From Escherichia phage SM_A8: a DNA stretch of 44,559 nt. Shown here piece by piece: positions 1,991 through 44,559 of the stretch. A program made the position numbers and the translations under genes. The notes under the pieces were generated by a model. The model did no database searches. It was not told where the DNA came from and saw nothing but the letters and a program-made list of their open reading frames with translations. The number at the start of each line of letters is the position of its first letter. The stretch's first letter is position 1. Where the stretch lies: sequence record PP920553.1; one strand, written 5' to 3'.

Positions 1991-3511
1991 ATGACCGTTA
2001 ACGTAGACAACCAGCACCCGCTCTATGCGCGCATCGCGCCAGAGTGGAAAATGATCCGTGACTGCGTAGCAGGGGAGCGCGCCGTGAAGGCGTGCGGCCC
2101 ATTATACCTGCCACACCCAGCAAGCGGCGACACCACCGACCCTAAATCGCGTGCGCGTTATAAGGCGTATAAGCAGCGCGCCGTCTTCCTGAACGCCACC
2201 GCCCGAACCCTTAACGCACTGTTAGGCGTGGCCTTCGCGAAGCCGGTGAGTATTGACCTTTCCGGGGCAATGGCTGACCTGATTGATGACGTAGACGGCA
2301 GCGGGATGCCACTGGCGCAACTCCTGCGCGGCGCTATGTCGGAAGTGCTGCAATCGGGCCGCGCTGGCTTTATGGTGGACTACGACCGCCAGGCGCATTT
2401 TGACGAACTGGGTAACGTAGTGCCGCAGACAGCCGCTGAAATGGCTGCACACCGCCCGCTTATCCGCCTGTATACGGCTGAGCAGATCATTAACTGGCGA
2501 CAGACCCACGGGGTCGACACGCTAATCGTGCTGAAGGAGACGGACGAAATCAGCACCGAAGATCCGGACGACTTCGCAAACCACGAAGTAACAATCTGGA
2601 CTGAGCTTCGCATGATTAACGGTGCGGCACACGCCCGCCGCTGGTATTACAACGCGGACACGTCCGAAGTGCAAATGGACTTGCCGCGTGGCTTCACCCG
2701 CACCGACCTTGTGCCGCTGGTGGATGCGGACGGTAATGCGCTTACGCAACTGCCATTTTGCTGGTGTGGTGCTGTGGACAACAACGCGACACCGGACGCC
2801 GCACCGCTGGCGGATATTGCGTCCATCAACATTAAGCACTACAACGCCGAAGCCGACGTCGCCGAGATTGCGCACATCGTGGGGCAACCTACCCTCGTTG
2901 CGACTGGTCTGACCCAATCATGGGCGGACAAGAACCTGAAAGGCGGCATCGCGCTTGGGGCAACTAAGGGCGTTATCCTGGGCCAGAACATGGACGCTAA
3001 ACTGATTCAGGCCGAGGAGCGCAACTTGTCTGTTGCGCTGTGTGAGCGACGCGAATTGCAAATGGCTAAACTGGGCGCGGCACTGGTTGAGAAGGGGACC
3101 GCACCTAAGACGGCAACCGAGGCGGCCTACGATGCGCAGACTGATAACAGTATCCTGTCGCTTATTGCCGGTAACGTTGAGAAGGCTTTCAACCGTGCGC
3201 TGCAAATCGTCCAGCTATTCACGGGCGACACCGCCGACCAGCGTGTGACGCTGAATAAGTTCTACACCGAAATCACGGTTGATGCGCAGCTTATGACCGC
3301 GATGATGTCGGGGGTGCAGACTGGCACGGTACGCCTGGCCGATTTCATCAAGTGGATGATGGCGCAGGGCGTCATCGACGACTCGCAAACCGTCGAGCAG
3401 GTGGAAGACGAATTGCGAAATCAGAATCCATTGCCTCAAATGTCCCCTGATGCGGTAGAATCTACCGAAGAAGACCCGGACAAGGTAGCGGACAATGGCG
3501 AAGACAATTAA
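1991..3511 (+). CDS. portal protein
   Basis: 506-aa ORF after TerL, RBS AAGGAAA upstream, acidic C-terminus; call by size and position. Confidence 0.7.
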   Translation: MTVNVDNQHPLYARIAPEWKMIRDCVAGERAVKACGPLYLPHPASGDTTDPKSRARYKAYKQRAVFLNATARTLNALLGVAFAKPVSIDLSGAMADLIDDVDGSGMPLAQLLRGAMSEVLQSGRAGFMVDYDRQAHFDELGNVVPQTAAEMAAHRPLIRLYTAEQIINWRQTHGVDTLIVLKETDEISTEDPDDFANHEVTIWTELRMINGAAHARRWYYNADTSEVQMDLPRGFTRTDLVPLVDADGNALTQLPFCWCGAVDNNATPDAAPLADIASINIKHYNAEADVAEIAHIVGQPTLVATGLTQSWADKNLKGGIALGATKGVILGQNMDAKLIQAEERNLSVALCERRELQMAKLGAALVEKGTAPKTATEAAYDAQTDNSILSLIAGNVEKAFNRALQIVQLFTGDTADQRVTLNKFYTEITVDAQLMTAMMSGVQTGTVRLADFIKWMMAQGVIDDSQTVEQVEDELRNQNPLPQMSPDAVESTEEDPDKVADNGEDN

Positions 3512-4598
3512 TCAACATTTGGCGGATCGCATGATCCGCCGTCACATCTTCACCCAGCGCCTGAGCAATGACCAGGCGCGGAGGGTGCTGGCTATGTGGG
3601 AGAAGTTCCGGCCTACATTACTGGGAAAGCTGACCGAGTTGCTTGATGGCAAATCGTCAATGAACAACAAGGCACTTACCACACTGTTAACGCAACTCGA
3701 CAAGACCGTCAAAACGGAACTGCGCACCGAGTTTAAGGCGTTGGCTGAAAGCCTTCAGGAGTTCGCCGACACCGAGGCTGATTATCTCGCCGACACATTA
3801 ACGGCAGCGATCCAGCCGGTAGTCGCCGTACCGGCGGTCGAGGTGGTTGGCGTAGTGACCGGCGCGCAGATCGCAGCAACGGCAATGAAAAACCCGTTCC
3901 AGGGCAATACCATGATGCAATGGCCTGACTCACTTTCTGAGTGGACCAGGACGCAGATCGGTAATCAGGTGCGGGCGGGATTCATCCAAGGCAAGCCAAC
4001 GATGGAAATTATCGCGGACGTGAGGCGCGCGCTAGGCGGTCGTAGTGCGCAAGCCATCTCAAGCGTTGTTAAGTCCGCAGTAAACCACTATGCGGCGACT
4101 GCCCGCGAACTAATGGTAAAAGCAAATGACGATATTCTCGAAGGTCGCCAATGGTTATCTACATTGGACACACATACTTCTCCCATGTGCCAGCTACGCG
4201 ATCGCCTGTTTTATCCGGTTGATGTTACTCCCGACACCAAAGGAAAGCGCGGCGGGAAAGTGGTGGCGGGGTCACAGTATGGCGCTGGCCCAGGCAAGCT
4301 GCATTATTGCTGCCGGTCGACGGAGACGTGGAAAGTCAAAGGCATGGAAGATTGGCCCAGTGGTAAGCGTCCGGCACTGAAGGCCGACGCGGGTCGATTG
4401 CTGAGTGAGCAGGTAGACGCGCAGACTGATTTCTTCTCATGGGTGCAGCGCCAGCCGCGCCATATCCTGGAAGAATTATATGGAGTGCAACGCGCCGACC
4501 AGATTATGCGCGGCATGAAAGTGCCGAAGATGTTCACCGATTCTGGCGAACTGATGACTATTGCACAGCTTAAAAACCGGGGGTTATGGCGTGATTAA
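3495..4598 (+). CDS. head morphogenesis protein (Mu F / SPP1 gp7-like)
   Basis: 367-aa ORF overlapping portal stop; position and composition typical of minor head morphogenesis proteins. Confidence 0.6.
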   Translation: MAKTINQHLADRMIRRHIFTQRLSNDQARRVLAMWEKFRPTLLGKLTELLDGKSSMNNKALTTLLTQLDKTVKTELRTEFKALAESLQEFADTEADYLADTLTAAIQPVVAVPAVEVVGVVTGAQIAATAMKNPFQGNTMMQWPDSLSEWTRTQIGNQVRAGFIQGKPTMEIIADVRRALGGRSAQAISSVVKSAVNHYAATARELMVKANDDILEGRQWLSTLDTHTSPMCQLRDRLFYPVDVTPDTKGKRGGKVVAGSQYGAGPGKLHYCCRSTETWKVKGMEDWPSGKRPALKADAGRLLSEQVDAQTDFFSWVQRQPRHILEELYGVQRADQIMRGMKVPKMFTDSGELMTIAQLKNRGLWRD

Positions 4599-4920
4599 AT
4601 ATGCAGCGATTGGACTGGTTATCGGTCTGGCGGTAGGATTCTGGCTAGGTGACTCCTATCGCGCTGGCGTAGTGGCGGAGGCGGCGCAAGAAGCGCAAGC
4701 CCAAGCCCAACGGCAGCAAACTAAAGTAATCGAGCGCTCCGTGCAGGCAGAACAAGCCCGCGACGTGGAATACCGGACTATCACAAAAGAGGTTGTTAAA
4801 TATGTTACGCGCCCTAACCGCCCTGATTGTAGTTTTGACGCTGAGCGCGTGCGGATCAAGCAGCGTGCCGTTGATGCCGCTAACGGAGTCGGCACTGCGA
4901 CCGCCGTGCAAGTTCGATAA
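4591..4920 (+). CDS. i-spanin (Rz-like)
   Basis: GTG start overlapping upstream stop; N-terminal TM segment IKYAAIGLVIGLAVGFW then charged Q/A/E-rich periplasmic region; contains an embedded +1 frame lipoprotein gene. Confidence 0.5.
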   Translation: MIKYAAIGLVIGLAVGFWLGDSYRAGVVAEAAQEAQAQAQRQQTKVIERSVQAEQARDVEYRTITKEVVKYVTRPNRPDCSFDAERVRIKQRAVDAANGVGTATAVQVR

Positions 4921-5032
4921 CCCGTCTGCGGACCCCGACGAAGATTTGATGATTGACGTGAAAAATATGGAATGCGGGGCGAAGCTGAGGGCGCAGGTGT
5001 TGGAGTTGCAGCAAATAATTAAGGGGCCGTAA
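4802..5032 (+). CDS. o-spanin (Rz1-like outer-membrane lipoprotein)
   Basis: RBS AAAGAGG 9 nt upstream; signal peptide with lipobox LSAC, proline-rich mature part; +1 frame overlap with Rz-like gene and extends past it. Confidence 0.55.
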   Translation: MLRALTALIVVLTLSACGSSSVPLMPLTESALRPPCKFDNPSADPDEDLMIDVKNMECGAKLRAQVLELQQIIKGP

Positions 5033-5044
5033 TGGCCCCTTTTC
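5022..5044. terminator. hairpin between convergent genes (bidirectional terminator candidate)
   Basis: AGGGGCC-gtaat-GGCCCCT followed by TTTT; sits between Rz1-like stop (5032) and leftward gene stop (5047). Confidence 0.5.
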
Positions 5045-5046
5045 CG

Positions 5047-5811
5047 TTAGCGAGGAATGCCGCAAATCTCGTTGAGTGTTTTCACATCCAGCGCCACCGC
5101 CGTGGATTTTGGCTTGTCCTGGTAAGGGATGAATTGCTCAACTTCGGGCCATGCCTTGATCAGCTTCTTATCGGTATTGTGTATATCCAGCACGCCGGTA
5201 ACAGTTAGTTTGAACGCGTCATACTTAGCCCGCAACTCACGGCGGGCCTTGTCGTTACGGTCCAGGCGCTTGCAGAAATCGTGGTCCGCAGGGTAGTCTA
5301 TGCGACCGCGCGGAAGATATATCGGCAGCGCTTTCCCGTCCTCGTCGACTTCGCACACTGACGCTAACAAAATTTCCTCATACCCTGGCACAATATCGCC
5401 GAGATCGGGAGACAGTTTATTCATGTATTTATACTCCCAGTATCCGCGATGTACTCGGAATCGGTGTCCGTCTCCGCTCAATGACACGGTACGGACGTTT
5501 CCGCCTGCGTTGATTTCGAAAGTGGCGTCGTAAACGCTGCCTATACCATATGGGTTGTCGGCGTCATGTCTATACGTCGCCTTATTGGTGTACACACAGA
5601 CGCCGTACATCTGCGACGGGTCATAGCCGATTGCTTCAATGCGCTCACGTAGCTCGGCGAACGAATGAATGCCTTCCGGCATACAGTCCAGCGTAATGGC
5701 GTACGCCAGATTTCGAGAGTCCATCATGATTGATTTGGCTTCAGTCGCGATTTCGTGGTCGCGCAGTATGTTAGCCAGAATCTGATTTTTAATGTCTTTC
5801 GTCAGTCTCAT
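5047..5811 (-). CDS. hypothetical protein (leftward insert in structural module)
   Basis: 254-aa ORF, ATG with GAGGA RBS; opposite strand to all flanking structural genes; no motif recognised. Confidence 0.6.
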   Translation of the reverse strand: MRLTKDIKNQILANILRDHEIATEAKSIMMDSRNLAYAITLDCMPEGIHSFAELRERIEAIGYDPSQMYGVCVYTNKATYRHDADNPYGIGSVYDATFEINAGGNVRTVSLSGDGHRFRVHRGYWEYKYMNKLSPDLGDIVPGYEEILLASVCEVDEDGKALPIYLPRGRIDYPADHDFCKRLDRNDKARRELRAKYDAFKLTVTGVLDIHNTDKKLIKAWPEVEQFIPYQDKPKSTAVALDVKTLNEICGIPR

Positions 5812-5851: not shown

Positions 5852-6166
5852 TTAGTTGAATTTGATGTTGCCACCGGTGGAAGTTAAGCGGGCACATACA
5901 GCTTCAACGGCATCGACGCACATGAAATCGTTAAAGGCTTCGACCAGGGCGTTTATGAAAGATGCCGGAACCAGGCCGCAAGCCGGATTATCGAATGTTG
6001 CGGAGTTGATCGCCGCTTTTGCCGCTTCGGAAGCATTCATGCTCTGGCACAGATTCAGCGCTTCCGCGTTACGCATTGCGTGAAAGGTAAAGGTATTCGC
6101 TACGGTAGTTTTATTGAAACGGGCCATTGCGGCGTCTACTGGAGTTGCTACGGTCATGTTAGTCAT
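5852..6166 (-). CDS. hypothetical protein (leftward insert in structural module)
   Basis: ATG at 6166 with GAAGGAAA RBS (track ORF 5852..6226 starts at an upstream TTG); no motif recognised. Confidence 0.5.
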   Translation of the reverse strand: MTNMTVATPVDAAMARFNKTTVANTFTFHAMRNAEALNLCQSMNASEAAKAAINSATFDNPACGLVPASFINALVEAFNDFMCVDAVEAVCARLTSTGGNIKFN

Positions 6167-6201
6167 TTTGTTTTCCTTCATATCTCTGTTGGTGTGCAAC
6201 C

Positions 6202-6231
6202 AATATAATGCAACCAACATACGCAATGCAA
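6202..6231 (-). promoter_or_regulatory. sigma70-like promoter for leftward two-gene insert
   Basis: minus-sense TTGCAT-N18-TATATT; overlaps two GCAACCAA 8-mers; the 21 nt from the -10 onward are identical to the promoter at 39991-40011. Confidence 0.45.
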
Positions 6232-6238
6232 GCGAATT

Positions 6239-6266
6239 TTGCGATTATTTTTATCGCTGATAATAT
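6239..6266 (+). promoter_or_regulatory. sigma70-like promoter upstream of scaffold/capsid genes
   Basis: TTGCGA-N16-TAATAT about 55 nt upstream of scaffold start. Confidence 0.4.
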
Positions 6267-6320
6267 TAAGGCGTGAAGTCAAGCGGGTGGCCCGCTTTGC
6301 CACAATCCCAGGGGGATAGC

Positions 6321-21999: not shown

Positions 22000-22020
22000 A
22001 GCCCCGAAAGGGGCTTATTT
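22000..22020. terminator. bidirectional terminator candidate
   Basis: AGCCCC-gaaa-GGGGCT then TATTTG; between convergent genes and overlapping the lipoprotein stop codon. Confidence 0.5.
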
Positions 22021-22236
22021 GCAGGTTGTGCTTTTGAAATGGTCTACAGACACGTACTGGAAGCTGAACGGATAGCCAGCCCTTAGCATTTTATGCCCGG
22101 AGAAGTCTGCAACACCATACACAGGGACCGCATAATCCATACCGCCAGTGTGGTATGTCGCCTCGCAGATCTTGCCAGGCATCGTGGAGCATCCTACCAG
22201 CACCGCAACTACACAGGCTAAAAGTAAAGTTTTCAT
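22015..22236 (-). CDS. small lipoprotein, putative receptor-blocking superinfection exclusion protein (Llp/Cor-like)
   Basis: 73 aa; signal peptide MKTLLLACVVAVLVGC with lipobox, two further Cys; RBS AGGGGA; own promoter; sits between host-specificity gene block and tail fiber on the opposite strand. Confidence 0.55.
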   Translation of the reverse strand: MKTLLLACVVAVLVGCSTMPGKICEATYHTGGMDYAVPVYGVADFSGHKMLRAGYPFSFQYVSVDHFKSTTCK

Positions 22237-22316: not shown

Positions 22317-24032
22317 ATGGCAGCGGGTACGCTATCAGTAACGAACAACAGCAAGGCGGTAGTAGGGGTCGGCACGACGTTTACCGCGTTTAAAGCTGGC
22401 GACTTCTTAACGCTGGTGGTAGGACAAGTCCCATACACCGTGGCAATCGCGTCCATTGAAAGCGCAACCGCGCTCACGCTGGTGTTGCCGTTCGACGGCC
22501 CAACGGCAACCGGCCTTGCGTGGGATGGCGTTAAGCGCGACACCATGTCACTGGCGACGATGGGCGTTACCGTACAGGCACAAAAAGCATTGCGCTTGAT
22601 GATCGCAGATGAAAACAACTGGCGTGCAATCTTCGGCGACGCTGAAGAAATCACCGTGACGCTACCTAACGGGCAGGTTATGCAGGGAATGTCATGGGGC
22701 TATCTGTCGTCTTTGCTTAAGAACGTAGACCCAGTTGAGATGCGCGACCTGCAACAGCAAGCCGTAACAGCGAAAAACCAGGCAGTTACGGCTAATGGGC
22801 AAGCGGAAGCGGCACGCGACGCTGCCGTAACAGCGAAAAACCAGGCAGTTACGGCTAAGGGGCAAGCGGAAGCGGCACGCGACGCTGCGAACACGGCTAA
22901 GACTGGCGCGGAGGCGGCCCGCAATCAGGCCGAACAATTCGCTAATAGTGTTAATACTGAAAACCTACTTGCGAAGGCCAACAACTTAAGCGATGTTGCG
23001 GATATGGGTGTAACGCGCGAAAACATTGGCGTAGACCGCCTATCGCAAAACATAACCAGCGGCGAAACACAAATCAGGACTGCGGCGAAGAATAAATGGA
23101 TCTTCGTTAAGGAAAATGGCGACTGGGGCGGGTGGGATAATGCCAACAATAAAGCCATGCCGCTGCCGATTGCATTCGGTGGTACGGGGCGCGGCGATAA
23201 CGTCGCCGAGTTCCGCCAATTCAAATCAAACGGCGACACCCAAGATGGGTTAATCATTACGCAGAACGACAACGGATTCGGTGGTGTGGGCTGGGCCGAT
23301 TCCGCGGATAAAGTACGCTGGCGTATGGGCATCGACGAAGCCTCTGGCCATTTTAAAATATACTCATACGACTCCGCGGGAGCGTATCGAGACACCGTCC
23401 TCGAGATCACCGGAGTAGGAGTCGGTGGCATGGTGTGGTCCCGTGATATTACCGTGCGCCCGACGACGGCAGTTCCTGCGCGGTCTTTCGTTCTAAACAA
23501 CGGAAAAGCTACCGTCCCGGCTGGTAACTTCCGCACGATGTGGGATACGGTTAATATCAATAGTAACCAGATCTATAAATATTTTGAGAAGGGAGACGGC
23601 ACTGGCTTTACAGTCAATTGGCCCTCATCTGGTGGTGTTATTGCCCTCCAGGGTACATCAGGAAGGGACTTTAAGAAAGATATTACCGACGCGGACGTTA
23701 CCGAAGCGGTTGCACGCATTGAACAAATGCGCATGGTGCGCTACGTGTATAAGGACGATGTGAAGGAGCGCGTCCGCTTCGGCATCATTGCCGAAGAAGC
23801 AGAAGAGATTGCGCCTCAATACATCAAACACCGTGAGGAGACGTACGATGTGGAGGTGGACCCCGAGACTAACGCCATCGTCGGGGGTAAGACGCGCGAC
23901 CGTCCGTCGGTGGACGTTAACCCTATCGTGATGGACTTGATGGGGTGCGCACAATATGCGATCGCTGAGTGTAAACGCCTGGCGGCGGAAGTGGAGGATT
24001 TGAAAGCCGAGATCGCGGCGTTGAAGAAATAA
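22317..24032 (+). CDS. tail fiber protein with C-terminal intramolecular chaperone (peptidase S74-like) domain
   Basis: ATG 22317 with GAGGA RBS (track start 22290 is TTG); 63-bp tandem repeat at 22761-22886; C-terminus matches the S74 chaperone pattern (RFGIIAEEAEEIAPQYI ... LAAEVEDLKAEIAALKK). Confidence 0.7.
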   Translation: MAAGTLSVTNNSKAVVGVGTTFTAFKAGDFLTLVVGQVPYTVAIASIESATALTLVLPFDGPTATGLAWDGVKRDTMSLATMGVTVQAQKALRLMIADENNWRAIFGDAEEITVTLPNGQVMQGMSWGYLSSLLKNVDPVEMRDLQQQAVTAKNQAVTANGQAEAARDAAVTAKNQAVTAKGQAEAARDAANTAKTGAEAARNQAEQFANSVNTENLLAKANNLSDVADMGVTRENIGVDRLSQNITSGETQIRTAAKNKWIFVKENGDWGGWDNANNKAMPLPIAFGGTGRGDNVAEFRQFKSNGDTQDGLIITQNDNGFGGVGWADSADKVRWRMGIDEASGHFKIYSYDSAGAYRDTVLEITGVGVGGMVWSRDITVRPTTAVPARSFVLNNGKATVPAGNFRTMWDTVNINSNQIYKYFEKGDGTGFTVNWPSSGGVIALQGTSGRDFKKDITDADVTEAVARIEQMRMVRYVYKDDVKERVRFGIIAEEAEEIAPQYIKHREETYDVEVDPETNAIVGGKTRDRPSVDVNPIVMDLMGCAQYAIAECKRLAAEVEDLKAEIAALKK

Positions 24033-30434: not shown

Positions 30435-32726
30435 CTACTTGCGGTATCGATACATACAATCACCTTCGGCGGCAAGTGGGAAGCCTTTCGCCCAAATAGG
30501 CAGGTCGCACATCAGCGCGCAAAGCTCCTCTGTCGTGTAGTCGTCGGTGTCCGGCACTTCTGTGATCAATTCATCATGCACCGATAGAACGATTTCATAG
30601 CCCGCAGCTTCAACGCCAGGCATTGACCAGGCGAGAATATCACGGCACAACGCCTGTACTATGTTCTCCGTCAGTTTGCCGCCGTAGGTATACTGGAAGC
30701 CCCACTGGCGCGTCGTCTGATTCTCGCCCTGATATTTAATGCGTGTGCTGGTGCGCTTCTTGCCGGTGTCTTCGTCAATCTCGGTCGTGACAGACAGCGC
30801 GATGCCCGGGTAGCTCATGATGCGCCCCGACGGCAACTCAATTTTCAACCACCACCCCGCGGCGTTCGGGTCGTCGCGCTCCTCGTCAAAGGTTGGGTCG
30901 TGCTTCGCCTTCGTACGGACAATCTTGAGCGCTTTTCTACCGTCCGGGCGAACGTTCGCACCAGCCCAGTATGCTTTGCCCGGATTGCGGATTGCACACA
31001 ACACCGCGTCCTCAAGCTCGGCCCAAAATGCTACCGTCTTCGGGTGAGCCTCACGCCACATACGTTTGATCGCGTCACAAGTCAGCCATACGTTTTTCGG
31101 CAGTATGTATGTTGGACGCTCGTCTTTCTTGCCTGGCTTCGGCGGGCGTTTCGCTTCGTTAATACGAGCGTATTCATAACCGCGTTTCGCCGCCGCCCAA
31201 ATGTGATCGGGGAATGTGCCCTTCATCACGTCCGCCATAGTGTAAAGGTCGAGGCCCAGGTTTTTAGCGAACTGCAAGAACGCCGCGACTCCGCCACCAT
31301 AGCCCAGTCCCAATTCGCACGCCTTACCGATCTGGCGTAAGTCCTTGCGGTTGGCTTTAATGTAGTCCGGGTCCAGGCCGAACATCTTACCGGCAGTCTC
31401 ACAATAGATATCGCGACCGGCCATAAACACCATTAGCGCGGTTTTCTCGCCCGCGATCCAGGCAAGTCCACGCCCTTCCACGTTGGAGAAGTCCGCTACG
31501 ACAAACTTCTTACCCTTAGCCGGAATAATGCACCCGCGAACGGTCGAGGCCGTTAACTTCGATATGTCATACGCCCAGTGTGCAGTCCCGCGTAACAGGG
31601 AGTTGATGCCGTTGGTGAGCATGTGCGACCGCACCCAATAAGAAACGTCGCTCTCGCCATCACGGCGCTTAATCTTCCCTTCGTGGTCGTCGCTATACTC
31701 GCCGCGTGCCAGGTTTTGCGGCTGGAAGCCCTTACCGGCCCAGCGTAGCGTGCGCTTTGCCCCACCATACTGAAGACAACCACGGCGGCGACCATCGGCG
31801 GACAGGCCATTGACAAGCGGATTGTATTTAGTAGATGCCGTTGATGACGCACCGAGGCGCATTTCGATAAGCGCTTTGCCTTCGTCGGGGAAATCCGGGT
31901 CTTCAAGCAGGTCGTTAAGTGTGGATTTCTGCGCGTTGTGGATCGTGAACGCCGGGGCGATATCACGCAGGATTGGCAGGAAGTCATTGCCGGTCAGCTT
32001 ACCGCCAAATCGCTCCCAGGCTTCTTCCTTCAATTCTTCCTTATGCGCCTGCACCGCTTTGATCGCGGCGTTCGCCAGGTCAACGTCCACATAGAAGCCG
32101 CGGTCGTTGATCAACTGGTCGATAAGCAGGATTTCATCTTCCTTCGGAGTATTACCCCAGTCCGGTATGCGCCAGTAGACTTCACGCATTGCGATAATAT
32201 CCAGCGCGGCATAGCGCAGAAATTTGGCCCACTCTTCTGGGTGAGTCTCGCGAGTGTAGCGGCGGATTTTGTAGGTCTTAGGGGTAGGCTTACAGAATCG
32301 TTTAATCAGCGCCTTGCCTGCCTTATCCTTCGCGTGCTCTGCGTCAACGCCCAGCACCTGGCACTGCATATCGAGGCTGCCGGGGAGAGCGTGGCGAAAG
32401 GCCATAATCATGGTGTCTTCGATCTGGCTTACCGGCAGGTCAATACCCCACTTCTCGCGAATGACCAGGCGGTCAAACAGGAGGCCGTTAGCCATCACTA
32501 TTTTTGCTTTCTTGCGGGATACCCTGCGGAGCGCCTTGCGCAGTTCACGCGGCATTGTTGGGGACTCGGTGCAATCCCATGTCTGCACGCGGCCCTCATC
32601 GATGGCGTAGGTGCAAATCATAATCTCGGTGGTTGGGTGCTCTGCGTAGGCATATGCGCCCACTTTCTTCAGATCCACCCCGCTAAATGTCTCGGTATCG
32701 AGAAAAAGTCGTTCGAAGTCTTTCAT
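30435..32726 (-). CDS. family A DNA polymerase (Pol I-like) with 3-5 exonuclease domain
   Basis: Exo I motif FLDTETFSG, O-helix-like RQIGKACELGLGYGGG, motif C SVHDE; 763 aa. Confidence 0.85.
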   Translation of the reverse strand: MKDFERLFLDTETFSGVDLKKVGAYAYAEHPTTEIMICTYAIDEGRVQTWDCTESPTMPRELRKALRRVSRKKAKIVMANGLLFDRLVIREKWGIDLPVSQIEDTMIMAFRHALPGSLDMQCQVLGVDAEHAKDKAGKALIKRFCKPTPKTYKIRRYTRETHPEEWAKFLRYAALDIIAMREVYWRIPDWGNTPKEDEILLIDQLINDRGFYVDVDLANAAIKAVQAHKEELKEEAWERFGGKLTGNDFLPILRDIAPAFTIHNAQKSTLNDLLEDPDFPDEGKALIEMRLGASSTASTKYNPLVNGLSADGRRRGCLQYGGAKRTLRWAGKGFQPQNLARGEYSDDHEGKIKRRDGESDVSYWVRSHMLTNGINSLLRGTAHWAYDISKLTASTVRGCIIPAKGKKFVVADFSNVEGRGLAWIAGEKTALMVFMAGRDIYCETAGKMFGLDPDYIKANRKDLRQIGKACELGLGYGGGVAAFLQFAKNLGLDLYTMADVMKGTFPDHIWAAAKRGYEYARINEAKRPPKPGKKDERPTYILPKNVWLTCDAIKRMWREAHPKTVAFWAELEDAVLCAIRNPGKAYWAGANVRPDGRKALKIVRTKAKHDPTFDEERDDPNAAGWWLKIELPSGRIMSYPGIALSVTTEIDEDTGKKRTSTRIKYQGENQTTRQWGFQYTYGGKLTENIVQALCRDILAWSMPGVEAAGYEIVLSVHDELITEVPDTDDYTTEELCALMCDLPIWAKGFPLAAEGDCMYRYRK

Positions 32727-41291: not shown

Positions 41292-41428
41292 GTGCGACGA
41301 TCCGTGATATGCTGATGCATAACCGCTTCGAGATAGGCGGTCGGGTATCTCGCAATTACTTCGTGGCGCGTGCATGGGCGCGCCATATTGGCAAACCGGA
41401 AGGGGCAATTCGATGCTACACGAAATGA
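41288..41428 (+). CDS. small hypothetical protein
   Basis: 46-aa ORF, ATGA-coupled on both sides; not in ORF track. Confidence 0.3.
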   Translation: MSATIRDMLMHNRFEIGGRVSRNYFVARAWARHIGKPEGAIRCYTK

Positions 41429-41700
41429 TATATTGGTTTGGTATGGCCAGCATGTTATGCCTGGTTACGGGAGTGCTTGGCGCAATATGGGTATTCCTGG
41501 TATGGCCCGCCGTGGAAGCCGCCAGCATTACCCGCATGACGTTAGAGATATACAAGCGCCGTGGAATCACGGAGCACCCGACCAGGGTGCGCATGTGGTG
41601 GCTGTGGTATCGCGATATGATAGGCGGGCGAACATTCGAAGCCATCCGGTCGGGTGGATGGGAGTGGAACGGCGTCGGCAAGTGGTCCATTTTCGATTAA
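41425..41700 (+). CDS. small membrane protein
   Basis: 91 aa; hydrophobic segment MLCLVTGVLGAIWVFLVWPAV; Trp-rich C-terminus. Confidence 0.4.
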   Translation: MIYWFGMASMLCLVTGVLGAIWVFLVWPAVEAASITRMTLEIYKRRGITEHPTRVRMWWLWYRDMIGGRTFEAIRSGGWEWNGVGKWSIFD

Positions 41701-41718
41701 TTATGCAAGCGTGATATA

Positions 41719-41752
41719 GTCCCAGTGAGATAAAACTTACTGGGACTTTTTT
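41719..41752 (+). terminator. intrinsic terminator abutting the holin start codon
   Basis: 8-bp stem GTCCCAGT / ACTGGGAC, 12-nt loop, T6, then ATG 41753. Confidence 0.55.
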
Positions 41753-42043
41753 ATGGATAAGCTAAACGAGTGGTTATTCGCCCTTGCGTGTCTTGCTGGC
41801 GGCTTCGTAGGCGCACGCATTCATGGCGAGGCAACGAAAGGGCCGTTGAACTTCGTTTTATATGTCGTAGTTGGCTTCCTGTGTGCCATATTTGGCGCAC
41901 CGGCTATTGCCGAGTGGGCTGGTTTGTCGGGGGAGCGCACTGTCGCCGGTTTTGGCTTCGTAACCGCAATCTTCTGGATGCCAATCGCCGACCGGATCAG
42001 GGAGACTATTGAGTCGTTCCGACTTCCGGGGGGTGCAAAATGA
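41753..42043 (+). CDS. holin-like membrane protein (three predicted TM segments)
   Basis: 96 aa with three hydrophobic segments and charged C-terminus; upstream of endolysin with overlapping starts. Confidence 0.45.
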   Translation: MDKLNEWLFALACLAGGFVGARIHGEATKGPLNFVLYVVVGFLCAIFGAPAIAEWAGLSGERTVAGFGFVTAIFWMPIADRIRETIESFRLPGGAK

Positions 42044-42285
42044 TTATCTCCGTCCTGTTGTTTGTTATCATCGGGGCTTCGTCCCTGTTTAACGTGTATG
42101 CGCCGTCCGTCCGGGATGGCATTTTCGGTCGGGTGCTGTATCTGTTAACGGCAATGGTCTGTATTATCGGATTGCTGCAAACAGGCGACGTATCGGATAC
42201 CACCTGGACCGCGTTAATCTGGCTGTTTGCATTGCGCACCCTGCGTAATGCTGTTTTGAATGGGGTAAAACATGCGATTCAGTGA
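42040..42285 (+). CDS. membrane protein (second holin or antiholin candidate)
   Basis: 81 aa, three hydrophobic segments; ATGA-coupled between holin-like gene and endolysin. Confidence 0.4.
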   Translation: MIISVLLFVIIGASSLFNVYAPSVRDGIFGRVLYLLTAMVCIIGLLQTGDVSDTTWTALIWLFALRTLRNAVLNGVKHAIQ

Positions 42286-42763
42286 CAACGGTCTACGATT
42301 TACGGCAGCATGGGAGCAATTCAGCCCAGTGCCGTATTTTGCGACTAAGAAAGAGCAGGCCCGCGGCCTGTATACCTGGGGCTATGGTCACACCGGCACT
42401 AATCCGCCGCGGAGCATTACCCGTGCGGAAGCACTGGAGCTACTCAAGCGCGACGTGGCGTATGCCGAGAACTGGGTAAACAAGTACGCACACCCGAGCA
42501 TCAACCAGGCGCAATTCGACGCGCTGGTGGACCTGGTTATCAATGCCGGTCCTGGTCCGATCATGCCGGACGACGTCGCCGGAGACTTCGACGATGCGAT
42601 CCGCCTGGGTGACTGGGCAAAGGTCCGTGCTACGCTGCCACAATTCCGCAAGCAAGGCGGGGCAGTGCTCAAGGGGCTTGTCCGTCGTGCAATCGGCAGG
42701 CAGGCACTATTTGATGGTAAGCAGTGGGACGTTGCCGAGAAAATCGGGCGAAACGCCGCATAA
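42272..42763 (+). CDS. endolysin (GH24 lysozyme-like)
   Basis: catalytic Glu context AAWEQF, GYGHTG, ITRAEALELLKRD, INQAQFDALVDLVINAG, GLVRRAIGRQALF match the P22/lambda lysozyme pattern. Confidence 0.8.
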   Translation: MRFSDNGLRFTAAWEQFSPVPYFATKKEQARGLYTWGYGHTGTNPPRSITRAEALELLKRDVAYAENWVNKYAHPSINQAQFDALVDLVINAGPGPIMPDDVAGDFDDAIRLGDWAKVRATLPQFRKQGGAVLKGLVRRAIGRQALFDGKQWDVAEKIGRNAA

Positions 42764-42779
42764 TACGAGGAGACACAGT

Positions 42780-43092
42780 ATGTTAAAAAGCATTCTTGAT
42801 CATAACGCCGACGCGCTCGCCGCGCTGGCTAAAACCGAAGACCCAGGCGCTCGCCGCGCTGGCTAAAACCGAAGACCCAGGCGCTCGCGCCATTATCGCG
42901 GACACTATCAGTCATGCTGGCGTATTTGACGCGAAGCTGCCTAGCCCGCCGCCACAGGCGCTCGCCGCGCTGGCTAAAACCGAAGACCCAGGCGCTCGCG
43001 CCATTATCGCGGACACTATCAGTCATGCTGGCGTATTTGACGCGAAGCTGCCTAGCCCGCCGCCACAGGAAGAATCTGACCCAGTGACGTAA
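42780..43092 (+). pseudogene. repeat-protein gene with apparent frameshift inside tandem repeats
   Basis: ATG 42780 with GAGGAG RBS reads 28 codons to TAA 42864-42866; the rest (two 111-bp repeat units ending at TAA 43090-43092) continues in the +1 frame; one 36-bp sub-repeat copy is 2 nt short. Confidence 0.4.
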
Positions 43093-43100
43093 ACAATCAA

Positions 43101-43123
43101 GCCCGGTTAATTCCGGGCTTTTT
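43101..43123 (+). terminator. rho-independent terminator
   Basis: GCCCGG-ttaatt-CCGGGC followed by T5. Confidence 0.6.
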
Positions 43124-43187: not shown

Positions 43188-43268
43188 ATGGCACGTAAAG
43201 ATATTTGGGTATTAGCGATCTGGACCACCGCGGCTTTTATCGGCATGGTTATTTGCGAATTGATATAG
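43188..43268 (+). CDS. small hydrophobic peptide (26 aa)
   Basis: strong RBS GGAGGAG 8 nt upstream; MARKDIWVLAIWTTAAFIGMVICELI; promoter-like TTGACT-N18-CATACT with 8-mer copies upstream. Confidence 0.3.
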   Translation: MARKDIWVLAIWTTAAFIGMVICELI

Positions 43269-44472: not shown

Positions 44473-44559
44473 CGGCAGCCAGTAATCCTCCCAGCCTGCC
44501 GATTTGGTGGGCTTTTTTGTGCCTGTTATAATCCCACTTAGATGGCAGGGCCGTCTCCT

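What the first reader, a model, noticed from the sequence alone, without database searches (positions are those of the whole stretch)
4591..5032. Spanin pair is located ~37 kb from the holin-endolysin cassette
The Rz/Rz1-like overlapped pair sits after the head morphogenesis gene, while the holin-like genes and endolysin are at 41753-42763. Even on a circular map they are separated by the packaging genes. The spanins end at the bidirectional terminator shared with the leftward insert, so their transcriptional context differs from the rest of the lysis genes.
Basis: partly seen in the sequence, partly recalled or inferred. Interest (0 to 1): 0.45.

Follow-up and report, generated by a model that had tools for sequence, protein, structure and literature searches.

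The report
Spanin genes apart from lysis cassette
This E. coli phage keeps its two outer-membrane-breaking "spanin" genes at the end of its DNA-packaging genes rather than beside its other lysis genes; this is real, but it is the normal and already published layout for this phage group.

Summary
The window is a complete Dhillonvirus (HK578-like E. coli siphophage) genome. An i-spanin (GTG 4591..4920, 109 aa, N-terminal membrane helix) overlaps by 119 bp an o-spanin (ATG 4802..5032, 76 aa, lipobox LSA|C). Both match PHROG "Rz-like spanin" families. Both are conserved, with lipobox and periplasmic cysteines, across Dhillonvirus and Guernseyvirinae.

The holin-holin-endolysin cassette lies at 41753..42763. 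That is 36.7 kb away on the linear map but only 6.4 kb on the circular map. A six-frame scan found no second spanin. The only other lipoprotein is a Cor superinfection-exclusion homologue.

The pair ends in a hairpin (5021-5041) whose 5' arm encodes the last o-spanin codons and which also faces the convergent leftward Nmad5 gene. Two terminator-like hairpins and a conserved extended -10 promoter lie between the lysis cassette and terS. I therefore infer a separate terS-terL-portal-head morphogenesis-spanin transcription unit.

None of this is new. HK578 and its relatives are in the "Jersey" overlapped spanin family of Kongari et al. 2018. BASEL Dhillonvirus records annotate the pair at this position. 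The split layout is stated in print for the Guernseyvirinae phage Schulenberg and is classic for T4. Verdict: confirmed, ordinary, low interest.

The parts
4591..4920 (+). i-spanin gene (Rz-like), 109 aa. It has a GTG start with GGGGG 7 nt upstream, and it overlaps the head-morphogenesis stop codon (4596-4598) by 8 nt.
   Evidence: phrog_2536 E 3.5e-36. There is a single hydrophobic segment at residues 1-22 and one periplasmic Cys, C80. The GTG start is conserved in 7/7 Dhillonvirus loci and the protein is alignable to the K1H, f18SE and Bas72 i-spanins. Bas14 and Bas15 annotate it as i-spanin.
4802..5032 (+). o-spanin gene (Rz1-like), 76 aa. The signal peptide is MLRALTALIVVLTLSA|C, with Gly at +2 of the mature protein. 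AAGAGG lies 9 nt upstream of the ATG.
   Evidence: phrog_5672 E 2.5e-26 and phrog_1267 E 2.4e-11. The lipobox scan picks it up. The lipobox Cys and two further Cys (C36, C58) are invariant across Dhillonvirus and Guernseyvirinae. The mature protein is 60 aa with 7 Pro.
4802..4920 (+). The 119-bp dual-coding overlap: the variable i-spanin C-terminal tail and the o-spanin signal peptide plus N-terminal linker.
   Evidence: The overlap is 119 bp in 5 Dhillonvirus loci, 98 bp in 2, and 155 bp in Guernseyvirinae. Substitutions in the overlap are split evenly between the two frames.
5021..5041 (.). Two-way terminator-like hairpin, AAGGGGCC-GTAAT-GGCCCCTT. Its 5' arm encodes the last o-spanin residues (K-G-P) and the stop codon sits in the loop.
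   Evidence: It is conserved in 7/7 Dhillonvirus loci whatever the leftward gene is, and is absent in K1H, f18SE and Bas72. The HK578 RefSeq record annotates terminators on both strands here.
3495..4598 (+). Head morphogenesis (Mu F / SPP1 gp7-like) gene immediately upstream. Its end overlaps the i-spanin start.
   Evidence: phrog_241 E 2.6e-118.
5047..5811 (-). Convergent leftward Nmad5 gene, the first gene of the 'leftward insert'.
   Evidence: PF18757 E 2.8e-55. It is the homologue of the Dhillonvirus nmad5 gene implicated in sensing by the Tmn defence system (PMC11846954).
41753..42043 (+). Holin with three hydrophobic segments (class I-like).
   Evidence: phrog_2359 E 2.6e-31.
42040..42285 (+). 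Second holin or antiholin candidate with two hydrophobic segments (class II-like).
   Evidence: phrog_2508 E 1.9e-27.
42272..42763 (+). Soluble lysozyme-type endolysin with no N-terminal hydrophobic (SAR) segment.
   Evidence: PF00959 E 2.5e-20; phrog_7; no hydrophobic window found.
43099..43120 (.). Two-way terminator-like hairpin that closes the lysis cassette region.
   Evidence: Folds at -16.4 and -19.0 kcal/mol on the two strands, z -4.6 on each, with a U-rich tail on the + strand.
44493..44513 (+). Terminator-like hairpin with a U6 tail, after the exonuclease gene.
   Evidence: -12.3 kcal/mol, z -1.7, so weak on energy alone. It is conserved in HK578 and Bas14 although the upstream gene content differs.
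44524..44532 (+). Extended -10 promoter-like element TGTTATAAT, about 50 nt upstream of terS (ATG at 23, across the map junction).
   Evidence: Read from the sequence. It is identical in the window, HK578 and Bas14. No activity data exist.

Best explanation
The locus is a functional two-component spanin of the 'Jersey' family in overlapped architecture.

Proposed mechanism, by analogy with lambda Rz/Rz1 (established knowledge, not tested here). The i-spanin is a type II inner-membrane protein. Its mostly helical periplasmic domain binds the mature o-spanin, an outer-membrane lipoprotein acylated at Cys17. The complex spans the periplasm and is held in check by the peptidoglycan mesh. Once the holins at 41753-42285 release the soluble endolysin (42272-42763) and the wall is degraded, the spanin complexes fuse or disrupt the outer membrane.

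Proposed expression (inferred). The pair is the last cistron pair of a packaging/early-head unit: an extended -10 promoter near 44524-44532, then terS, terL, portal, head morphogenesis, i-spanin and o-spanin, ending at the hairpin 5021-5041. The i-spanin is translationally coupled to the head morphogenesis gene through an 8-nt overlap. The holin-endolysin cassette is a separate unit bracketed by hairpins at 41718-41747 and 43099-43120.

Why separation is tolerated. Spanins only need to have accumulated by the time of holin triggering and play no part in timing, so genetic separation has no functional cost.

Origin of the layout. The position between head morphogenesis and scaffold genes is inherited. 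It is shared by Dhillonvirus and Guernseyvirinae. The terminator and the leftward cargo slot are Dhillonvirus-specific additions.
For: Identity of the genome: 93-96% nucleotide identity to Dhillonvirus genomes, with collinear head morphogenesis-spanin-leftward gene in at least 135 records and a collinear lysis region in 149 records.

Family matches: PHROG spanin, holin and endolysin families.

Spanin features: lipobox LSA|C with Gly at +2, a single N-terminal TMD in the i-spanin, conserved periplasmic cysteines (1 in the i-spanin, 2 in the o-spanin), and purifying selection in both frames.

Fold: a single-sequence AF2 model gives helix 3-72, a break at 73-83 and helix 84-97. This fits the two-helix-plus-linker description of the HK578 subfamily, but confidence is low (pLDDT 59).

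Literature: HK578, JL1, SSL-2009a, EK99P-1, EP23 and SO-1 are listed in the Jersey i- and o-spanin families (PMC6139136).

Same split layout elsewhere: K1H, f18SE, Bas72, Tsm2, Bas14 and Bas15 and HK578. It is stated in print for Schulenberg (PMC6763661).

Transcription signals.

Timing in a relative: in the Kagunavirus K1B4 time course, the Mu-F-like head gene, the capsid gene and the lysozyme fall in the same 'middle' expression class (PMC12645636). The spanins are not named in that study.
Against: There are no functional data for this pair or for any Dhillonvirus spanin. Lipidation, complex formation and lysis phenotype are all inferred. Pfam has no model that matches either protein. The transcription unit rests only on sequence motifs: the hairpin at 44493-44513 is weak (z -1.7), the + strand tail of the 5021-5041 hairpin has only four U, and the generic promoter scan did not flag the extended -10 element because its -35 is poor. 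Read-through from the lysis cassette cannot be excluded.
Confidence: 0.9

Rival explanations
1. The pair are spanins but are not in a separate transcriptional context. On the circular or concatemeric replicating template, one long late rightward transcript runs from the lysis cassette (or further upstream) through the exonuclease and packaging genes to the spanins. The intervening hairpins would be leaky or antiterminated, so the 'split' is only a 6.4-kb insertion inside one operon.
For: Every annotated gene from the holin round to the o-spanin is on the + strand, and the interval is only 6,386 bp. The holin itself sits immediately after a strong terminator-like hairpin (41718-41747), which implies that read-through or antitermination already operates in this region. 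The hairpin at 44493-44513 is weak (z -1.7).
Against: Two terminator-like hairpins with U tails lie in between. The one at 43099-43120 has z -4.6. A perfectly conserved TGTTATAAT element follows the second hairpin, which is the arrangement expected for a terminator-promoter boundary.
Confidence: 0.2
2. The two ORFs are not lysis proteins. They would be a small membrane protein plus a lipoprotein with another role, for example superinfection exclusion or virion assembly, that happen to resemble spanins in topology.
For: There is no experimental test in this phage group. Their location among head genes would suit an assembly role. Phage lipoproteins with other roles do exist, such as the Cor homologue in this same genome.
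Against: Both match spanin PHROGs and the curated Jersey spanin families. The overlapped i-then-o gene order, conserved periplasmic cysteines and helical i-spanin domain are the spanin signature. No other outer-membrane disruption candidate was found in the genome, although the host is Gram-negative and the genome has a canonical holin and a soluble endolysin. A distant i-spanin homologue sits in a contiguous endolysin-holin-spanin cassette in Klebsiella phage VLCpiS13d.
Confidence: 0.04
3. A second, unrecognised outer-membrane disruption function lies next to the endolysin, making the distal pair redundant. Candidates are a unimolecular spanin, a disruptin-like peptide, or the TMD protein at 41374-41700.
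For: Small membrane-protein ORFs flank the cassette: a 95-108 aa protein with an N-terminal hydrophobic segment at 41374-41700 (phrog_2531, function unknown) and a short TMD peptide ORF near 43189-43268.
Against: No lipobox ORF exists anywhere between 39.5 and 44.6 kb. The 41374 product has no lipoprotein partner and a Trp-rich soluble part (sequence); coiled-coil propensity was not computed. Neither ORF matches a lysis PHROG.
Confidence: 0.04

Closest known systems
'Jersey' overlapped i-spanin/o-spanin families of Kongari et al. 2018 (PMC6139136), short subfamily EP23 / HK578 / JL1 / SSL-2009a / EK99P-1 / SO-1
   Same: The phage genus is the same and the proteins are near-identical (95% identity to the HK578 i-spanin). 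The architecture is overlapped, the i-spanin has two helices plus a linker, and the o-spanin cysteines are conserved.
   Different: Nothing substantive differs. This isolate differs by a few substitutions. Several GenBank relatives mis-annotate the o-spanin as a 52-aa fragment or omit it.
E. coli siphophage Schulenberg (Guernseyvirinae), PMC6763661
   Same: The paper explicitly reports that the holin/antiholin pair and the endolysin are genetically separate from a partially overlapping i-/o-spanin pair.
   Different: It belongs to a different subfamily. I did not examine Schulenberg's own locus. In the Guernseyvirinae genomes I did examine (K1H, f18SE, Bas72, Tsm2), the pair follows a Hoc-like decoration gene and is followed directly by the scaffold gene, with no terminator and no leftward cargo.
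Phage lambda Rz/Rz1
   Same: The component topology and the presumed mechanism are the same: a type II inner-membrane protein plus an outer-membrane lipoprotein, with Cys-dependent complexes.
   Different: In lambda, Rz1 is fully embedded in Rz and the pair is the last part of the S-R-Rz/Rz1 cassette. There is no detectable sequence similarity here, and no Pfam Rz/Rz1 hit.
Phage T4 PseT.3/PseT.2
   Same: This is a two-component spanin encoded far from the holin (t) and the endolysin (e). PMC6139136 cites it as unlike the traditional cassette.
   Different: The T4 genes are in the non-overlapping 'separated' architecture, belong to an unrelated sequence family, and lie among early/middle genes rather than at the end of a packaging operon.
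Klebsiella phage VLCpiS13d lysis cassette
   Same: It has a distant homologue of this i-spanin (37% identity over residues 44-100).
   Different: There the spanin is contiguous with the endolysin and holin, in the order endolysin-holin-spanin. The same spanin lineage therefore occurs in both contiguous and split layouts.

Membership tests
Two-component spanin, i-spanin component | A single N-terminal transmembrane domain with N-in/C-out topology | tested here: met
   The only hydrophobic segment is residues 1-22 (KD17 maximum 1.95), with Lys3 on the N-terminal side and the remaining 88 residues 30% charged. Topology itself is inferred.
Two-component spanin, i-spanin component | A largely alpha-helical (coiled-coil) periplasmic domain with a linker | tested here: inconclusive
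   The single-sequence AF2 model gives helix 3-72, a break at 73-83 and helix 84-97, but mean pLDDT is only 59. This agrees with the description of the subfamily in PMC6139136.
Two-component spanin, o-spanin component | A signal peptidase II signal with a lipobox Cys, and no Asp at +2 (outer-membrane sorting) | tested here: met
   The signal is MLRALTALIVVLT-LSA|C-G. The lipobox is conserved as LSAC or LSGC in 10/10 loci from 3 genera. Processing itself was not tested.
Two-component spanin, o-spanin component | A short, proline-rich mature periplasmic domain | tested here: met
   The mature protein is 60 aa with 7 Pro.
Two-component spanin, gene pair | The o-spanin gene is embedded in, overlapping, or immediately downstream of the i-spanin gene, in a different frame if overlapping | tested here: met
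   The overlap is 119 bp in the +1 frame. The same arrangement is seen in all relatives, with overlaps of 98-155 bp.
Two-component spanin, gene pair | Periplasmic cysteines available for intermolecular disulfides | tested here: met
   i-spanin C80 and o-spanin C36 and C58 are invariant in the alignment. Disulfide formation was not tested.
Two-component spanin, gene pair | Required for outer-membrane disruption: spherical-cell arrest when absent, and complementation of lambda Rzam Rz1am | not testable with these tools
   This needs genetics and microscopy.
Jersey spanin family (Kongari 2018) | Sequence homology to listed members in both components | tested here: met
   tblastn gives 95.4% identity to HK578 and 97.2% to JL1 for the i-spanin, with weaker matches to SETP3 and K1H. 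The o-spanin aligns with K1H and f18SE, sharing the motifs PPCK, DEDL, DV-N-EC and LR-V-LQ.
Unimolecular spanin (T1 gp11 type), considered for the rest of the genome | A lipoprotein signal plus a C-terminal TMD in one protein | tested here: not met
   The only other lipobox protein (22015-22236, minus strand) has no C-terminal hydrophobic segment and matches Cor, phrog_1119, E 2.4e-24.
Canonical lambda-type lysis cassette (holin-endolysin-spanin contiguous) | All lysis genes adjacent in one cluster | tested here: not met
   The spanins lie 6.4 kb (circular map) or 36.7 kb (linear map) from the endolysin, with six or more genes in between.

The most novel reading that the evidence does not exclude
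The most novel reading not excluded has two linked parts.

(1) The site just 3' of the spanins is a dedicated cargo slot in Dhillonvirus. A terminator is built into the last three o-spanin codons and is conserved in 7/7 genomes, while the convergent leftward gene is swapped: Nmad5, a DNA pol III beta-like ORF, or a 140-aa unknown protein.

(2) The split lysis layout arose when an ancestral contiguous endolysin-holin-spanin cassette, as still seen in Klebsiella phage VLCpiS13d, lost its holin-endolysin part to another position. The spanins would then be a relic marking the old cassette site.
Probability: 0.25. Interest if true: 0.25.

Novelty: already known. Interest (0 to 1): 0.1.

Why it matters
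It matters little beyond correct annotation. It illustrates that spanins, unlike holins, play no part in the timing of lysis and can sit anywhere in late-expressed DNA, which is already accepted from T4 and many genome announcements.

It has two practical uses. First, many GenBank Dhillonvirus records truncate or omit the o-spanin, and these could be corrected to the 76-aa lipoprotein. Second, anyone engineering Dhillonvirus phages, for example at the adjacent nmad5 locus used for escape from the Tmn defence system, should know that the terminator hairpin overlaps the o-spanin stop codon.

Tried and rejected
- **Second spanin or u-spanin near the endolysin.** I scanned all six frames with every start codon for a signal peptide plus lipobox. 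Only the o-spanin and a Cor homologue are credible. The other three hits lie in the 22700-22924 repeat region and at 31623, with poor signals and in non-genic frames.
- **Pfam.** No model matched either spanin or either holin. Only PHROGs recognise them.
- **Alternative starts.** TTG 4561 for the i-spanin lies inside the head gene, has no Shine-Dalgarno sequence and is not used in annotations. TTG 4793 for the o-spanin would add only three residues. I preferred GTG 4591 and ATG 4802 because of their Shine-Dalgarno spacing and conservation.
- **Generic sigma-70 scan.** It found nothing above shuffle expectation. I found the extended -10 element upstream of terS by reading the sequence, and it is supported only by conservation.
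- **AF2 on the i-spanin alone.** The model had low confidence, so I did not run fold searches.
- **Transcript data.** I looked for transcriptomic data on this phage group. Only a Kagunavirus time course exists, and it does not name the spanins.
- **Not run.** I did not run the large protein-database searches because the family assignment was already unambiguous.
Full report
**What the window is.** A 2.5-kb query spanning the finding matches 157 phage records, almost all Escherichia phages of the genus Dhillonvirus. The best matches are 96% identical (Zumzum, JLBYU60), and 135 records are collinear over at least 80% of the query. The lysis region behaves the same way, with 149 collinear records. 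At 44,559 bp the window is therefore a complete HK578-like siphophage genome opened, by convention, at terS.

**Check of the observation.** The coordinates are exact.
- The i-spanin ORF in frame with GTG 4591 ends at 4920 and gives 109 aa.
- The o-spanin ORF from ATG 4802 ends at 5032 and gives 76 aa. The overlap is 119 bp.
- GTG 4591 overlaps the TAA stop (4596-4598) of the head-morphogenesis gene by 8 nt and is preceded by GGGGG. ATG 4802 is preceded by AAGAGG at a 9-nt spacing.
- Holin-like genes at 41753-42043 and 42040-42285 and an endolysin at 42272-42763 are present as stated.
- PHROG profiles assign both spanin ORFs to 'Rz-like spanin' families (E 3.5e-36; 2.5e-26 and 2.4e-11). Both holins match holin families and the endolysin matches endolysin families. 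The endolysin also matches Pfam Phage_lysozyme.

**Are they real spanins?**
- The i-spanin has one hydrophobic segment (residues 1-22), a charged and Ala/Gln/Glu-rich periplasmic part, and one Cys (C80).
- The o-spanin has a textbook lipoprotein signal (MLRALTALIVVLT-LSA|C) with Gly at +2. Its mature part is 60 aa, proline-rich, with two further Cys.
- I aligned ten loci from three genera: Dhillonvirus (window, JLBYU60, BMA1, Bas14, Bas15, Gluttony, HK578), Kagunavirus (K1H, Bas72) and Jerseyvirus (f18SE). The lipobox Cys, both periplasmic o-spanin Cys, the i-spanin Cys and several motifs (VVKY, C-F--ERV; PPC, DEDL, DV-N-EC) are invariant, although overall identity between genera is only about 40%.
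- Among the seven Dhillonvirus loci, substitutions are 30 synonymous to 15 non-synonymous in the i-only part and 22 to 7 in the o-only part. Both frames are therefore under purifying selection.
- A single-sequence AF2 model is of low confidence (pLDDT 59). It gives helix 3-72, a break at 73-83 around the Cys, and helix 84-97. This fits the published description of the subfamily.

**Is there another spanin near the endolysin?** A six-frame scan using every start codon, looking for signal peptide plus lipobox, returned only two credible lipoproteins in the genome. One is the o-spanin. The other is a 73-aa protein at 22015-22236 on the minus strand, between tail genes. It has no C-terminal TMD and matches Cor superinfection exclusion (phrog_1119, E 2.4e-24). 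Nothing with a lipobox lies between 39.5 and 44.6 kb. The endolysin has no hydrophobic N-terminus, so this is a canonical holin plus soluble endolysin system that needs a spanin.

**Distance and context.**
- On the linear map the gap from the o-spanin stop to the holin start is 36,721 bp. On the circular map the gap from the endolysin stop to the i-spanin start is 6,386 bp.
- That interval contains, all on the + strand, a repeat-bearing ORF, a DNA-repair exonuclease/phosphoesterase (phrog_704), terS, terL, portal and the head-morphogenesis gene.
- It also holds two terminator-like hairpins. The first is at 43099-43120 (two-way, z -4.6, U-rich tail). The second is at 44493-44513 (U6 tail, weaker at z -1.7).
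- Directly after the second hairpin lies TGTTATAAT (44524-44532), a perfect extended -10 element about 50 nt upstream of terS. The hairpin-promoter module is identical in HK578 and Bas14 even though HK578 has an extra gene upstream.
- The lysis cassette is itself preceded by a very stable hairpin with a U6 tail (41718-41747, -24 kcal/mol, z -7.1).
- From this I infer, but have not shown, that the spanins close a unit running terS, terL, portal, head morphogenesis, spanins, distinct from the holin-endolysin unit.

**The terminator at the spanin end.** AAGGGGCC-GTAAT-GGCCCCTT (5021-5041) folds on both strands, at -18.2 and -17.1 kcal/mol. Its 5' arm encodes the last o-spanin residues (K-G-P) and the TAA stop is in the loop. 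The convergent Nmad5 gene ends at 5047. The hairpin is present in all seven Dhillonvirus loci, whether the leftward gene is Nmad5, a 'DNA pol III beta'-like ORF (Bas14) or a 140-aa hypothetical protein (HK578). The HK578 RefSeq record already annotates it as terminators on both strands. It is absent in K1H, f18SE and Bas72. There the o-spanin is followed within 28-85 bp by the scaffold gene, and in K1H the terminator-like hairpins lie upstream of the i-spanin instead. The map position is therefore ancestral, but the operon boundaries differ between the genera.

**How it most likely works.** By analogy with lambda Rz/Rz1 (established knowledge, not tested here), the i-spanin anchors in the inner membrane and the lipidated o-spanin in the outer membrane. 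They form a Cys-stabilised, periplasm-spanning complex that is held inactive by the peptidoglycan mesh. After holin triggering and endolysin action, the complex fuses or disrupts the outer membrane. Spanins do not set lysis time and only need to be present late, so encoding them at the end of a morphogenesis operon works. In the related Kagunavirus K1B4 the Mu-F-like head gene, the capsid gene and the lysozyme fall in the same temporal class (PMC12645636), although the spanins are not named in that study.

**Comparison with what is known.**
- Kongari et al. 2018 list HK578, JL1, SSL-2009a, EK99P-1, EP23 and SO-1 in the 'Jersey' overlapped i- and o-spanin families. They describe the shorter HK578-type subfamily and its conserved cysteines (PMC6139136).
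- The BASEL phages Bas14 and Bas15 annotate i-spanin and o-spanin at this exact position, with holin-holin-endolysin near the right end.
- The vB_EcoS_P78 paper lists the Dhillonvirus lysis genes as ORFs 31-33 plus spanin ORF 40 (PMC12677095).
- Separated spanins are also noted for Serratia phage Scapp and are classic for T4.
- A distant homologue of this i-spanin lies in a contiguous endolysin-holin-spanin cassette in Klebsiella phage VLCpiS13d. The same spanin lineage therefore occurs in both layouts.

**Verdict.** However, the feature is the ordinary, already catalogued arrangement of this phage group. Novelty: already known. Interest: low (0.1). The only mildly new points are two. First, the terminator is embedded in the o-spanin's last codons and marks a variable leftward cargo slot. 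Second, the pair belongs to different inferred transcription units in Dhillonvirus and Kagunavirus. Both points are inferences from sequence.

Noticed in passing
window 41718-41760 (+): A perfect 12-bp hairpin (-24 kcal/mol, z -7.1) with a U6 tail ends 5 nt before the first holin's ATG (41753), which follows the U run directly (UUUUUUAUGG). The only Shine-Dalgarno-like purines (GGGA) lie in the 3' arm of the stem. The hairpin is conserved in HK578 and Bas14. Kagunavirus K1H has a different hairpin that buries a GGAGGA 6 nt before its holin start. This could be a terminator that gates the lysis cassette, or occlusion of the holin ribosome-binding site, or both.
   Followed up: partly
window 5047-5811 (-) and 5852-6226 (-): The 'leftward insert' next to the spanins encodes an Nmad5 protein (PF18757, E 2.8e-55) and a phrog_24635 protein of unknown function. 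Dhillonvirus nmad5 is the gene in which a single Lys-to-Glu change lets phages escape the Tmn defence system (PMC11846954). The slot is variable: Bas14 has a DNA pol III beta-like ORF, HK578 has a 140-aa hypothetical protein, and Guernseyvirinae have nothing.
   Followed up: partly
window 22015-22236 (-): A 73-aa lipoprotein (MKTLLLACVVAVLVG|C) lies on the opposite strand between tail genes. It matches Cor superinfection exclusion protein (phrog_1119, E 2.4e-24). It is the only other credible lipobox ORF in the genome.
   Followed up: yes
window 42781-43092 (+): The ORF region just after the endolysin carries perfect tandem repeats: a 34-bp unit x2.2 at 42813-42888 and a 111-bp unit x2.0 at 42844-43069. 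The ATG at 42781, which has a good Shine-Dalgarno sequence, opens a frame that stops at 42866, while the repeat-encoded 98-aa ORF (phrog_11068) is in another frame. Bas14 has an in-frame stop here and HK578 has an Ig-domain (Big_2) protein instead. The gene slot looks unstable or decaying.
   Followed up: partly
window 44493-44532 (+), continuing to terS at 23: A terminator-like hairpin is followed immediately by a perfect extended -10 element (TGTTATAAT). The module is identical in the window, HK578 and Bas14 despite different upstream genes. It is a likely promoter for the packaging genes, and the generic scan missed it.
   Followed up: partly
window 41374-41700 (+): A conserved 95-108 aa protein with an N-terminal hydrophobic segment and a Trp-rich C-terminal part (phrog_2531, function unknown) lies immediately upstream of the holin hairpin. 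Genes annotated only as hypothetical occupy the same position in HK578 (gp54) and K1H (gp45); I did not compare their sequences. It may be an unrecognised lysis-associated membrane protein.
   Followed up: no
L002 2975-3133 (BMA1), L008 1784-1942 (Gluttony), L010 (HK578): Public annotations of the o-spanin are inconsistent. BMA1 and Gluttony call a 52-aa fragment that starts at an internal Met and lacks the signal peptide, which is probably why phrog_5672 is only 47 positions long. The HK578 RefSeq record does not annotate the o-spanin at all.
   Followed up: yes
window 6239-6266 and 6281-6298 (+): The divergent gap between the leftward insert and the scaffold gene (ATG 6321) contains a TTGCGA-N16-TAATAT element with an upstream TG, which resembles an extended -10 promoter. 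It also contains a small hairpin, AAGCGGG-TGG-CCCGCTT. This may be the restart promoter for the scaffold-capsid operon.
   Followed up: no
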